This document shows positions 15,032-16,481 of a DNA stretch of 64,000 bases, one piece after another. This stretch comes from Burkholderiales bacterium (lineage in GTDB: Bacteria > Pseudomonadota > Gammaproteobacteria > Burkholderiales > SG8-39), in NCBI GenBank assembly GCA_035317085.1, contig DATHHS010000216.1, positions 4,963 to 68,962 of the forward strand, read 5' to 3'. Every line of letters begins with the position of its first letter. The first letter of the stretch is position 1. Under the pieces are notes generated by a model. It saw nothing but the letters and a program-made list of their open reading frames with translations, had not been told where the DNA came from and searched no databases. Position numbers and translations under genes: made by a program.

Positions 15032-15178
15032 TCGGCGTAGGCTACACTCACGTGGGGAGTTTGTGCCGCCTAACGAATGAAAGGGACTTCCCCTACTCGA
15101 AGCGGGTTGTGGCCCGCACGGCATCGAAGTGCCAAGATTGAGTTTGCGTTGTTCAATCTGATAACGAGAGGGGAAGTC

Positions 15179-16183
15179 ATGGAAAAGGTTACTACGTTGG
15201 GGATCGATCTGGCAAAGAGTGTGTTCTCGCTGCACGGGGTGGATGGTGCGGGTCGCGTGGTGCTCAGGCGCACGGTGCGCCGCGATCAGCTGCTTGGGGC
15301 GGTGGCGGCCTTGCCGCCGTGTCTGATCGGCATGGAGGCGTGTTCGGGGGCGCACGAGTGGGGCCGGCGGTTCCAGGAGTTGGGGCACACGGTGCGGCTG
15401 ATGGCGCCCAAGTTCGTGGCCCCGTACAGAAAGAGCGGCAAGAACGACGGCAACGACGCCGAGGCGATCTGCGAAGCAGTGACGCGGCCGAACATGCGTT
15501 TCGTGCCGGTGAAGTCCCTCGAGCAGCAGGCGCTGCTGGCAATGCACCGGGTCCGGCAGGGGTTTGTGGTGGAGAGGACCGCGATTATCAACCGGCTGCG
15601 GGGCTTGCTCTGTGAATTCGGCGTGGTGCTGCCGCTGCGCTCGGTGACCGTGCGCCGCCAGGCGGCTGCCGCGGCGGAGAACCTGCCCGAGCTCGCGCGT
15701 CGCGCAATCGGCGATCTGCTCGAGCAGCTGCGCTCACTCGATGAACGCATCGGTGGCTACGACCGGGAGATCGAAGCCCAGGCCAAACTGTGCGAGCCGG
15801 CGCAGCGTCTGATGAAGATCCGCGGCATCGGGCCCACCACGGCGCTGGCCATCGTGGCCACGGTGGGCAACGCGCGCGAGTTCAAGAACGGCCGGCAGTT
15901 CGCCGCCTGGATTGGCCTGACTCCGAGCCAGTACTCCACCGGCGGCAAGCCGCGCCTGGGGCACATCAGCAAGCGCGGGGACGCCTACCTTCGCAATCTG
16001 CTCGTGCAAGGCGCGCGTTCGGTTTTGAATAGCGCCGGCAGGCACCCGGACCGCATGTCGCGCTGGGTCCTCGATCTGCAGCCGCGCCGCGGCTACTATC
16101 GAACGCTGGTTGCGATTGCCAACAAGAACGCGCGCATCGCATGGGCGTTGCTCGCCAAGGGCGAATCCATGCGCTCGGCATGA
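15179..16183 (+). CDS. IS110 family transposase (DEDD recombinase)
   Basis: MEKVTTLGIDLAKSVFSLHGVD...CLIGMEACSGAHEW...GKNDGNDAEAICEA (N-terminal DEDD domain) and GIGPTTALAIVATVGNAREFKNGRQFAAWIGLTPSQYSTGGKPRLGHISKRGDAYLR (C-terminal Transposase_20-type domain). RBS GAGAGGGG. Confidence 0.9.
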   Translation: MEKVTTLGIDLAKSVFSLHGVDGAGRVVLRRTVRRDQLLGAVAALPPCLIGMEACSGAHEWGRRFQELGHTVRLMAPKFVAPYRKSGKNDGNDAEAICEAVTRPNMRFVPVKSLEQQALLAMHRVRQGFVVERTAIINRLRGLLCEFGVVLPLRSVTVRRQAAAAAENLPELARRAIGDLLEQLRSLDERIGGYDREIEAQAKLCEPAQRLMKIRGIGPTTALAIVATVGNAREFKNGRQFAAWIGLTPSQYSTGGKPRLGHISKRGDAYLRNLLVQGARSVLNSAGRHPDRMSRWVLDLQPRRGYYRTLVAIANKNARIAWALLAKGESMRSA

Positions 16184-16426
16184 ACGCACCCATCCGCTAA
16201 AGACTGCAATTGTCGATGACGAAACGGTCAAACCGGTGCCCGGAGAACCTGATCAAACACGACGGCAGCAACTCATGCCGACTAACGAGAGAGGTCCGGG
16301 CATGCGGCTTTCATCGGGGCCAGAGCATTCAATGCTCACAAACAGGCCGGTTATAGTGACGCAGTCCGTTCTTCCATCGGCACAAACGCTTCCGTTGCGG
16401 AAACGGGGAAGTCCTTATAGTCCCGG
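16184..16426 (+). ncRNA. Candidate bridge/seek RNA in the 3' non-coding arm of the IS (hypothesis)
   Basis: 243-nt non-coding arm downstream of the transposase. Several local hairpins: CGGCA/TGCCG at 16263-16280, a GAGCATT-C-AATGCTC palindrome, and CCGTT-gcgga-AACGG. An internal motif GCCGACTAACGAG (16277-16289) is nearly identical to the interrupted target GCCGCCTAACGCG. No covariance model was run. Confidence 0.35.
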
Positions 16427-16481
16427 CTAACGCGCCGCCCGCTTGCGGGCGGTCGCTGTTGAGCCGGCGGTTAGACGTGAC
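16427..16481 (-). other. attC-like recombination site of the brnTA cassette, interrupted at its R' core by the IS
   Basis: Minus strand reads GTCACGTCTAACCGCCGGCTCAACAGCGACCGCCCGCAAGCGGGCGGCGCGTTAG. Two RYYYAAC boxes (GTCTAAC, GCTCAAC). The near-perfect hairpin GCTCAACAGCGACCGCCCGC-AA-GCGGGCGGCGCGTTAG has two unpaired bases on the 5' arm. The core is completed by GTTAGGC across the IS at 15066-15072. Confidence 0.5.

What the first reader, a model, noticed from the sequence alone, without database searches (positions are those of the whole stretch)
15066..16432. IS110/IS1111-type IS inserted in the R' core of the attC-like site, with CTAACG at both junctions
The left junction reads GCCGCCTAACG|AATGAAAGGGACTTCCCC and the right junction reads GGGGAAGTCCTTATAGTCCCGG|CTAACGCGCCGCCC. 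Removing the IS and one CTAACG copy rebuilds, on the minus strand, ...GCGGGCGGCGCGTTAGGCGGCAC. That is the attC-like hairpin ending in a perfect GTTRRRY core (GTTAGGC), which also starts the next cassette. A subgroup of IS1111-type elements is known to target attC sites in a sequence- and orientation-specific way. This element has the expected sub-terminal inverted repeats (12 of 13 matching) and size (about 1.35 kb). The insertion would block recombination at this site, and it also overlaps the brnA stop codon.
Basis: partly seen in the sequence, partly recalled or inferred. Interest (0 to 1): 0.55.

Follow-up and report, generated by a model that had tools for sequence, protein, structure and literature searches.

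The report
RNA-guided insertion sequence splitting an integron attC site

Summary
There is a real, intact IS110/IS1111-family element here, but its ends are 15076-16420 (1345 bp), not 15076-16426. Empty attC sites in related cassette arrays read RYCTAAC-G-TTCGCG.... Occupied ones read ...CTAACG[AATGAAAGGG...CCTTATAG]TTCGCG.... So the left CTAACG is target (core box GCCTAAC 15068-15074 plus G). The right CTAACG (16427-16432) lies 6 nt beyond the IS, in the inner attC stem.

The IS separates the R' core (GTTAGGC on the minus strand) from the rest of the brnTA cassette's attC, next to a decayed intI.

The 237-nt region downstream of tnp encodes a bridge/seekRNA-like structure with two internal loops. 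One loop carries CTAACG and a variable guide that covaries with right flanks across about 77 relatives. The other carries copies of the IS's own ends, and these covary in 28 of 28 elements.

The transposase is only 38% identical to ISKpn4. ISKpn4 sits at the opposite end of attC, so this is an independent attC-targeting lineage. This copy's variable guide fits its own site poorly (5 of 12). Verdict: new member of a known kind, modest interest.

The parts
15076..16420 (+). Insertion sequence, 1345 bp. There is a 1-nt ambiguity: G15075 and G16420 are interchangeable, so 15075-16419 is equally valid.
   Evidence: Occupied versus empty sites in related arrays. Logan contig L002 is 100% identical over 15067-16421 and stops there.
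15083..15093 (+). Left sub-terminal inverted repeat GGGACTTCCCC, preceded by the 7-nt terminal extension AATGAAA (15076-15082).
   Evidence: I15. Conserved in all relatives. A 7-bp left extension is described for the IS1111 family (PMC11187229).
15179..16183 (+). tnp, a 334-aa DEDD transposase/recombinase carrying the GLTPSQYSTG (GL-P----S/TG) motif.
   Evidence: Pfam PF01548 and PF02371. NF033542 at 365 bits against a cut-off of 140. Relatives at 95% identity are abundant in metagenomes.
16236..16303 (+). Predicted target-binding domain of the bridge/seekRNA. Stems: P1 16236-43 / 16296-303, P2 16248-50 / 16292-94, hairpin 16264-79.
   Evidence: RNAalifold on 38 relatives. Compensatory changes are seen in P1, P2 and the hairpin.
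16251..16263 (+). Variable guide on the 5' side of the target loop (GATCAAACACGA + C). [quoted passage not shown]
   Evidence: An unbiased k-mer scan gave an anti-diagonal signal (right-flank offset i pairs with 16262-i; 8-9 observed versus 0.8-1.9 in shuffles). Longest-run test: 4.65 versus 3.89 +/- 0.10. L096/L101/L122 match 11 of 11. This copy matches its own flank only 5 of 12.
16282..16287 (+). Fixed guide CTAACG on the 3' side of the target loop. It is identical to the left target (attC core box end plus G).
   Evidence: Invariant in 38 of 38 aligned relatives. It matches the left flank of nearly all copies.
16304..16362 (+). Predicted donor-binding domain. CTTTCAT (16308-14) is complementary to the left end ATGAAAG (15078-84). 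TTATAG (16351-56) is identical to the right end. Stems: GGCC 16318-21 / 16345-48 and hairpin 16323-37.
   Evidence: The last 6 nt of the right end (TTATAG, TTAGAG or TTGTAG) recur in the noncoding region in 28 of 28 elements. L011 has left end ATGTAAG paired with CTTACA. Structure.
16395..16400 (+). TTGCGG, a candidate -35 of a junction promoter. After a 17-nt spacer, TAG(16418-20)|AAT(15076-78) forms a TAGAAT -10 only in the circular form.
   Evidence: Read directly from the sequence. TTGC is conserved in relatives. A junction promoter is known for ISEc11 (PMC11187229). This part is inference.
16405..16420 (+). Right sub-terminal inverted repeat GGGGAAGTCC plus the terminal extension TTATAG.
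15068..15075 (-). attC R' core box (minus strand GTTAGGC, plus strand GCCTAAC) plus the adjoining G. It is cut off from the rest of the attC by the IS.
   Evidence: It pairs with GTTAGAC 16470-76. Empty sites read RYCTAAC-G-.... A distal GTTAG-type heptamer is found in most relatives.
16421..16476 (-). Remainder of the attC of the brnTA cassette: R'' GTCTAAC (16476-16470 on the minus strand), an imperfect hairpin with three bulged bases, and the inner CGTTAG (16432-16427) that holds the brnA stop codon.
   Evidence: Fold. The bulged bases lie on the plus-strand 3' arm, which makes the plus strand the attC bottom strand. An intI remnant lies to the right.
17133..17779 (+). Decayed integron integrase gene, N-terminally truncated and frameshifted.
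   Evidence: TIGR02249 positions 115-276 (E 1e-69) in one frame and 275-315 in a second frame.

Best explanation
Window 15076-16420 is an intact IS1111-group insertion sequence of the IS110 family. It is inserted without duplication into the attC site of a brnTA gene cassette in a degenerate chromosomal integron.

On the attC bottom strand (the window's plus strand) the IS sits immediately after GCCTAAC-G. That is 1 nt outside the R' core (GTTAGGC on the cassette strand), so the core is separated from the remaining 56 nt of the hairpin. tnp is antisense to the cassettes.

The 237-nt region downstream of tnp encodes a bridge/seekRNA with two internal loops.
- The target loop has a fixed 3'-side guide, CUAACG, which equals the conserved attC core end plus G. 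[quoted passage not shown]
- The donor loop has CUUUCAU, complementary to the left end, and UUAUAG, identical to the right end.

Inferred mechanism, by analogy with ISEc11, ISKpn4 and IS621: the DEDD recombinase plus this RNA excises the element as a circle. The circle junction TAG|AAT completes a promoter. The complex then recombines the circle with any attC that offers CTAACG followed by a tolerably matching right flank.

Shown here: the ends, the empty-site structure, the covariation between guides and flanks or ends, and the conserved RNA fold.
Inferred: that the RNA is expressed, the circle, the promoter, and current activity.

Consequence: this attC can no longer fold with its R' box, so the brnTA/DUF6151 cassette boundary is frozen. 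The integrase is dead as well.
For: - Transposase family.
- Ends: conserved sequence stops at ...CCTTATAG in more than 50 relatives. Nineteen uninterrupted attC sites in the same loci read RYCTAAC-(G)-TTCGCGTTGAGCGG..., against occupied ...CTAACG[IS]TTCGCGTTGAGC.... L002 is identical over 15067-16421.
- attC identity: right flanks fold into imperfect hairpins ending in GTTAG-type heptamers 40-90 nt downstream. The left box varies together with the distal heptamer (L106 ATAAC with GGTAT, L010 CCAAC with ATTGG). The intI remnant is adjacent.
- Target guides: the k-mer covariation diagonal, shuffle tests, and CTAACG invariant in the noncoding region.
- Donor guides: covariation in 28 of 28 elements.
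- RNA fold: 30 consensus pairs, 11 with compensatory changes.
- Literature: the IS1111 seekRNA lies 3' of tnp, with the top-strand match 5' of the bottom-strand match and the two overlapping in the target. ISKpn4, ISPst6 and ISPa25 target attC. A claimed ISEc11 duplication was reassigned (PMC11187229). IS1111 bridge RNAs lie in the right end (PMC11208160).
Against: - This copy's variable guide matches its own right flank at only 5 of 12 positions, and only the first two are contiguous. That is close to the shuffled mean of about 4. Many relatives are likewise only partly matched.
- No Rfam family matched the region.
- The minimum-free-energy fold of the single sequence is not better than shuffles (z = -0.9). 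The structure rests on comparative data.
- No empty allele of this exact locus was found.
- Nothing here shows that the RNA, the circle or the promoter exists.
- The strand assignment of the attC (R' versus R'') rests on the side of the bulged bases, the intI orientation and the gene orientation, not on experiment.
Confidence: 0.85

Rival explanations
1. The IS spans 15076-16426 and is inserted inside the GTTRRRY core. CTAACG is a duplicated or shared core at both junctions, and the empty site is ...GCGCGTTAGGCGGCAC.
For: CTAACG is present twice.
Against: The bases after TTATAG differ between relatives (TCCCGG, TCTTGG, TCGTGC, TTCGCG, TGGCTT...), so they are flank. Empty sites contain those bases directly after CTAAC-G. 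L083 and L086 also show an inner CTAAC 6 nt into the flank, as part of their attC stem. The attC hairpin needs 16421-16432 to pair with 16457-16467.
Confidence: 0.03
2. A shifted-frame model. The left CTAACG belongs to the IS (IS = 15070-16420/21), because it is conserved next to AATGAAAGGG in nearly every relative. The target would then be only the sequence to the right.
For: CTAACG is conserved at the left of about 50 of 56 elements whose further-left flanks are unrelated. L002 starts at 15067.
Against: Empty attC sites already contain RYCTAAC-G directly abutting the right-flank sequence. The distal GTTAG heptamer needs this box as its partner. The first two positions vary (TTAAC, ATAAC, CCAAC) as RYYYAAC cores do, in some cases together with the distal heptamer. 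The noncoding region carries CTAACG as a guide.
Confidence: 0.07
3. Same element and ends, but this particular insertion was not directed by its own guide. It could be an off-target event, an event guided in trans by the RNA of a sibling IS with a different variable guide, or the guide could have changed after insertion.
For: Only 5 of 12 guide-flank matches here. Elements with the same guide (ATCAAACACGA) mostly sit next to TCGTG... or TCTTG... flanks (L004, L132, L198, L034, L119). Several guide variants co-occur in the same metagenomes.
Against: The fixed half (CTAACG) matches perfectly. Many family members tolerate poor right-flank matches, so relaxed right-side specificity may be normal for this lineage.
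Confidence: 0.35

Closest known systems
IS1111-attC group (ISPst6, ISKpn4, ISPa21; Tetu & Holmes 2008; Post & Hall 2009; seekRNA shown for ISKpn4 and ISPst6 in PMC11187229)
   Same: It is an IS1111-family DEDD element with sub-terminal inverted repeats and a 3' noncoding guide RNA. It inserts site- and orientation-specifically into integron attC sites, antisense to the cassettes, and makes no duplication.
   Different: The transposase is only 38% identical to ISKpn4's, whereas the named clade shares at least 74-90% (source data). In ISKpn4 on pHK31_1 the attC interior is on the left flank and AATT-GTTAGAT is on the right flank, which is the R''/L'' end. Here the core box is on the left flank, 1 nt from the IS, and the interior is on the right, which is the R'/L' end. 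It is the same attC strand but the opposite end.
ISPa25
   Same: It is a diverged IS1111 member (46% to ISKpn4) that also targets attC. This shows that attC targeting is not confined to one transposase clade.
   Different: ISPa25 is reported to use the same site and the same seekRNA matches as ISKpn4. It is 41% identical to this transposase (partial sequence).
ISEc11 / ISXne4 (the IS1111 seekRNA paradigm)
   Same: The noncoding region lies downstream of tnp. The top-strand match lies 5' of the bottom-strand match, and the two overlap at the insertion point. There is a junction promoter. An apparent flanking repeat turned out not to be a duplication.
   Different: ISEc11 uses a linear 12-bp target. 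Here one guide half is fixed on a conserved attC core and the other half is variable.
IS621 bridge RNA (IS110 group; PMC11208160)
   Same: One RNA has two internal loops, one pairing with the target and one with the element's own ends. Each loop has a guide for each DNA strand, and the guides overlap at a core.
   Different: In IS621 the RNA is encoded in the left end and the guide order is reversed. The core is the dinucleotide CT, whereas here only a single shared G is evident.
Nearest named transposases available to me: ISShdy1-family (57.7%, PGAP label on an E. coli plasmid), ISBcen3 (52%), ISAs16 (49%)
   Same: They belong to the same IS1111 sub-branch (CLIGMEAC and NKNARI motifs).
   Different: They fall well below the usual same-IS thresholds. 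I did not examine their targets. ISfinder itself could not be queried.

Membership tests
IS110 family, IS1111 group | DEDD (RuvC-like) N-terminal domain plus a PF02371 C-terminal domain | tested here: met
   PF01548 E 4.7e-15 and PF02371 E 1.4e-26. NF033542 at 365 bits.
IS110 family, IS1111 group | Sub-terminal inverted repeats with short terminal extensions | tested here: met
   GGGACTTCCCC 15083-93 and GGGGAAGTCC 16405-14, with extensions AATGAAA (7 nt) and TTATAG (6 nt).
IS110 family, IS1111 group | The longer noncoding region lies downstream of tnp | tested here: met
   103 nt upstream (15076-15178) against 237 nt downstream (16184-16420).
IS110 family, IS1111 group | GL-P----S/TG motif in the C-terminal domain | tested here: met
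   GLTPSQYSTG in the translation. Motif as described in PMC11187229.
IS110 family, IS1111 group | No target-site duplication | tested here: met
   Empty CTAAC-G-TTCGCG against occupied CTAACG[IS]TTCGCG. Only a 1-nt G ambiguity remains.
IS110 family, IS1111 group | Circular intermediate with a junction promoter | not testable with these tools
   TTGCGG, a 17-nt spacer and TAG|AAT would form one. This is inference only.
Bridge RNA / seekRNA | Guide segments complementary to both strands of the target, overlapping at the insertion point, and covarying with the target | tested here: met
   Variable guide against right flank. Fixed CTAACG against left flank. For this individual copy the variable guide matches only 5 of 12.
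Bridge RNA / seekRNA | A second loop that recognises the element's own ends | tested here: met
   The right-end hexamer covaries in 28 of 28 elements. The left-end complement CTTTCAT is present, with L011 as a covarying case.
Bridge RNA / seekRNA | Conserved secondary structure supported by compensatory changes | tested here: met
   30 pairs, 11 with changes on both sides. The single-sequence fold is not exceptional. There was no Rfam hit.
Bridge RNA / seekRNA | The RNA is expressed and bound by the recombinase | not testable with these tools
   No expression data are available.
IS1111-attC group (clade of ISPst6, ISKpn4, ISPa21) | The transposase falls in the monophyletic ISPst6-related clade | tested here: not met
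   38% identity to TnpKpn4. Clade members share 74-90%.
IS1111-attC group (clade of ISPst6, ISKpn4, ISPa21) | Same insertion point and orientation in attC as ISKpn4 and ISPst6 (near the 5'/R'' end) | tested here: not met
   ISKpn4 junctions on pHK31_1 against this family.
IS1111-attC group (clade of ISPst6, ISKpn4, ISPa21) | Inserts into attC sites of gene cassettes, antisense to the array | tested here: met
   The cassette genes are on the minus strand and tnp is on the plus strand.
Integron attC site (the target) | Inverse core RYYYAAC and core GTTRRRY flanking an imperfect palindrome with extrahelical bases | tested here: met
   Minus strand GTCTAAC (16476-70) ... GTTAGGC (15074-68). There are three bulged bases on one arm.
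Integron attC site (the target) | Association with an integron integrase and a cassette array | tested here: met
   A truncated, frameshifted intI lies at 17133-17779. There are two cassette-like units. Relatives sit in arrays with attC sites every 0.5-0.9 kb.
Integron attC site (the target) | Recombination by IntI | not testable with these tools
   No experimental data are available.

The most novel reading that the evidence does not exclude
This element and its many soil and groundwater relatives form a previously undescribed, independently evolved attC-targeting lineage of IS1111. It hits the R' (crossover) end of attC rather than the R'' end used by ISKpn4 and ISPst6. Its bridge RNA is 'half-fixed': one guide is locked on the universally conserved core (CTAACG), and the other is variable and loosely enforced. 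That arrangement would let one IS colonise almost any attC in an array.
Probability: 0.4. Interest if true: 0.45.

Novelty: new member of a known kind. Interest (0 to 1): 0.33.

Why it matters
IS1111 elements that target attC are already known to truncate and freeze integron cassette arrays, and the RNA-guided mechanism of the family was established in 2024. This case adds three things.

1. It corrects an appealing but wrong 'duplication' reading. The same mistake was made historically for ISEc11.
2. It provides a naturally diverse set of about 90 guide-target pairs. They show one invariant and one variable guide half.
3. It shows that a second transposase lineage has converged on attC but at the opposite end, next to the integrase crossover point.

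For annotation, it gives exact ends and a target rule (RYCTAAC-G|T...) for a family that is abundant in Burkholderiales-type metagenomes.

Tried and rejected
1. Rejected by relatives' flanks and empty sites.

2. My own interim model, that the left CTAACG belongs to the IS (15070-16420). I held it after and rejected it after attC folding, distal-core pairing and empty sites.

3. The perfect 10-nt complementarity between 16378-16387 (CGGCACAAAC) and the left flank 15059-15068, which I first took for the target guide. It has no family-level covariation. L120 has the same noncoding sequence in an unrelated left flank. 49 of 2000 shuffles reach at least 10 nt. I treat it as probably chance.

4. Rfam scan of 14000-18000. 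It returned only a sub-threshold, irrelevant hit.

5. Single-sequence RNA fold of the noncoding region. It was uninformative.

6. Search for other copies of the IS ends in the 64-kb window. None were found.

7. Search for an empty allele of this locus among the 206 fetched loci. None was found.

8. Search for an attC downstream of the DUF6151 gene (14236-14442). There is no hairpin signal (z = 0.04).

9. Using ORF orientation in GC-rich related arrays to fix the attC strand. It was ambiguous: only a toxin-antitoxin pair was identifiable.

10. Tetu & Holmes 2008 (PMC2447020) is not held in the library. ISfinder could not be queried.
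Full report
**What is in the sequence.** CTAACG occurs at 15070-15075 and again at 16427-16432. Between them lies a 334-aa ORF (15179-16183, plus strand). It carries Pfam DEDD_Tnp_IS110 and Transposase_20. It scores 365 bits against NCBIfam NF033542, 'IS110 family RNA-guided transposase'. Ten-nucleotide perfect inverted repeats lie sub-terminally, GGACTTCCCC at 15084-15093 and GGGGAAGTCC at 16405-16414. 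The noncoding stretch is short upstream of tnp (103 nt) and long downstream (237 nt). That is the IS1111 arrangement (PMC11187229; PMC11208160). So the observation that an IS110/IS1111-type element is here is correct. No second copy of either end exists in the 64-kb window.

**Where the element ends.** The window is an ENA metagenome contig. A Logan contig from another run (L002) is 100% identical over 15067-16421 and stops there. I collected relatives from GTDB genomes and from JGI metagenomes using a right-end pattern. This gave 56 elements with both ends and 77 more with the right end only. All relatives share ...GGGGAAGTCCTTATAG and then diverge (TCCCGG, TCTTGG, TCGTGC, TTCGCG, TGGCTT, ACCGAG...). 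The right end is therefore 16420, not 16426.

On the left, CTAACG precedes AATGAAAGGG in about 50 of 56 elements even though the sequence further left is unrelated. At first I read this as CTAACG being part of the IS. That reading failed on three counts.
- The right flanks fold as imperfect hairpins that end 40-90 nt downstream in a GTTAG-type heptamer. The only possible pairing partner for that heptamer is the xxCTAAC to the left of the IS.
- The first two bases of the left box vary (TTAAC, ATAAC, CCAAC) as RYYYAAC cores do. In some cases they vary together with the distal heptamer (L106, L010).
- Nineteen uninterrupted sites in the same loci read RYCTAAC-G-TTCGCGTTGAGCGGCG.... This is exactly the left flank joined to the right flank of occupied sites, with nothing added or lost.

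The element is therefore 15076-16420 (1345 bp), with a single ambiguous G (15075 or 16420) and no target duplication. The second CTAACG is internal attC sequence 6 nt from the junction. The same kind of error was corrected for ISEc11, where a claimed 4-bp duplication was reassigned (PMC11187229).

**The target.** On the plus strand the reconstructed site is GCCTAAC-G|TCCCGGCTAACGCGCCGCCCGC-TTGC-GGGCGG(T)CGC(T)GTT(G)AGCCGG-CG-GTTAGAC. It spans 15068-15075 plus 16421-16476, 64 nt in all.
- The three bulged bases lie on the plus-strand 3' arm. By the usual attC geometry (the extra bases are in L'', an established property of attC sites) this makes the plus strand the bottom strand.
- This agrees with both cassette-like genes being on the minus strand. 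These are a BrnT/BrnA-like pair at 16427-17030, with a weak CopG_antitoxin hit, and a DUF6151 gene at 14432-15031.
- It also agrees with an integron-integrase remnant on the right that reads away from the array. That remnant matches TIGR02249 positions 115-276, then 275-315 in another frame, so it is N-terminally truncated and frameshifted.

On the cassette strand the IS therefore lies between the L' arm and the R' core, 1 nt 5' of GTTAGGC, and tnp is antisense to the cassettes. It does not interrupt the heptamer itself. It does remove the heptamer from the hairpin, which should abolish folding and IntI recognition (inference). The brnA stop codon (16427-16429) lies in the inner CGTTAG and is untouched by the IS.

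**How it finds the site.** An unbiased scan compared 5-mers shared between each element's flanks and its own noncoding region against shuffled pairings. It gave one clear anti-diagonal: right-flank position i is complementary to window position 16262-i (8-9 observed versus 0.8-1.9 expected).
- With a fixed register the mean match is 5.08 of 12 against 4.05 +/- 0.16 in shuffles.
- Allowing small register shifts, the mean longest run is 4.65 against 3.89 +/- 0.10, with no shuffle reaching the observed value.
- The best cases are 11 of 11 (L096, L101 and L122; L096 and L101 sit in different sites).
- Opposite this variable guide, across a small hairpin, the noncoding region carries CTAACG (16282-16287). 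This is invariant in 38 of 38 aligned relatives and identical to the left target. The two guides overlap at the G.

The arrangement is a top-strand match 5' of a bottom-strand match, with the two overlapping in the target. That is what Siddiquee et al. describe for IS1111 seekRNAs.

A second loop recognises the element's own ends. The last six bases of the right end recur once in the noncoding region in the context CCGNTT..AG in 28 of 28 elements. They change in step across the three right-end variants: TTATAG, TTAGAG and TTGTAG. CTTTCAT (16308-16314) is the complement of the left end ATGAAAG, and L011 (ATGTAAG paired with CTTACA) is a covarying case.

RNAalifold on 38 relatives gives two stem-bounded internal loops. 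Of 30 consensus pairs, 11 show compensatory double changes. This is the two-loop bridge-RNA architecture, encoded in the right end as expected for IS1111.

Joining 16420 to 15076 would create TAGAAT, 17 nt downstream of a conserved TTGCGG. A junction promoter of this kind is known for ISEc11. Here it is inference from the sequence.

**A caveat for this copy.** Its variable guide (GAUCAAACACGA) specifies TCGTGTTTGATC, but the actual right flank is TCCCGGCTAACG. That is 5 of 12 matches, and only the first two are contiguous. Elements with the same guide mostly sit beside TCGTG... or TCTTG... flanks. There are three possibilities: right-side pairing is loosely enforced in this lineage, this was an off-target event, or it was guided in trans by another element's RNA. 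I cannot distinguish between them.

**Comparison with known elements.** The transposase is 38% identical to ISKpn4's, 41% to ISPa25's (partial sequence), 52% to ISBcen3's and 49% to ISAs16's (sequences from the source data of PMC11187229). It is 57.7% identical to a plasmid gene labelled ISShdy1-family. The IS1111-attC clade proper shares 74-90% identity, so this element is outside it.

I examined ISKpn4 in a class 1 integron on pHK31_1. There the attC interior (…GGCTTGAAG) is on the left flank and AATT-GTTAGAT is on the right. That is the R''/L'' end, antisense to qacL and aadB, and it matches the literature statement that these IS sit near the 5' end of attC (PMC3001079). In the present family the core box is on the left, 1 nt from the IS, and the interior is on the right. 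Both families lie on the same attC strand but at opposite ends. This difference in orientation relative to the hairpin holds whichever strand is called 'top'.

**Verdict.** This is a genuine, intact, recently active-looking IS1111-family element with a decodable bridge/seekRNA, inserted in an attC site of a dead integron. The kind is known: attC-targeting IS1111 elements and RNA-guided IS110/IS1111 recombination. This lineage appears to be an unnamed, independently retargeted member.

Noticed in passing
window 16378-16387 vs 15059-15068: There is a perfect 10-nt complementarity between the IS 3' region (CGGCACAAAC) and the left flank just outside the attC core. 49 of 2000 dinucleotide shuffles reach 10 nt or more. 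There is no family-level covariation. L120 carries the same sequence in an unrelated site. It is probably chance, but it remains unexplained.
   Followed up: partly
window 15085-15094 and 15169-15178: A third copy of the repeat (AGGGGAAGTC) overlaps the tnp ribosome-binding site and is perfectly complementary to the left sub-terminal repeat 74 nt upstream (I16). A hairpin between them could sequester the RBS in read-through transcripts.
   Followed up: no
window 17133-17779: The integron integrase gene lacks about 114 N-terminal codons and has a frameshift near profile position 275. No attI region is evident between it and brnT. The integron is degenerate.
   Followed up: partly
window 16427-16759 (minus): The brnA-like ORF reads through the whole attC hairpin and stops at the TAG in the inner CGTTAG. 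Its last 18 or so residues are encoded by the recombination site.
   Followed up: no
window 14244-14251 and 14431-14437: Downstream of the DUF6151 gene there are a core-like TCCCAACG (followed by TCGTCGTTT, close to what this IS's variable guide specifies) and an ATTAGAC. The interval does not fold as an attC (z = 0.04). The last cassette seems to lack a recognisable attC next to glnE.
   Followed up: partly
L005, L143, L185, L201 (right ends): Four metagenome contigs show one to three extra tandem copies of TCCTTATAG immediately after the IS right end. This could be an assembly artefact or a real 9-bp end duplication.
   Followed up: no
L002 (Logan SRR7026262): A 1355-nt contig from an unrelated sequencing run is 100% identical to window 15067-16421. 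Transposases at 90% identity or more are very numerous in JGI, ENA and Logan metagenomes. The element appears widespread and recently mobile.
   Followed up: partly
L014-L052 (e.g. L047, Paraburkholderia xenovorans LB400 chr 3): More distant relatives (55-65% aa, right end CCCTTGTAG) keep the same left end and the same donor-guide logic. Many are also flanked by CTAACG on the left and GTTRAGC-type hairpins on the right. Others (L036, L047: TTAGAG|...|CGTGTTAGG) seem retargeted.
   Followed up: no
L074 3870-4460: The cassette next to the IS-occupied attC in a related array is also a toxin-antitoxin pair (Gp49/HigB-like plus an HI1420-type antidote) on the strand opposite to tnp. This mirrors the brnTA cassette here.
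   Followed up: no
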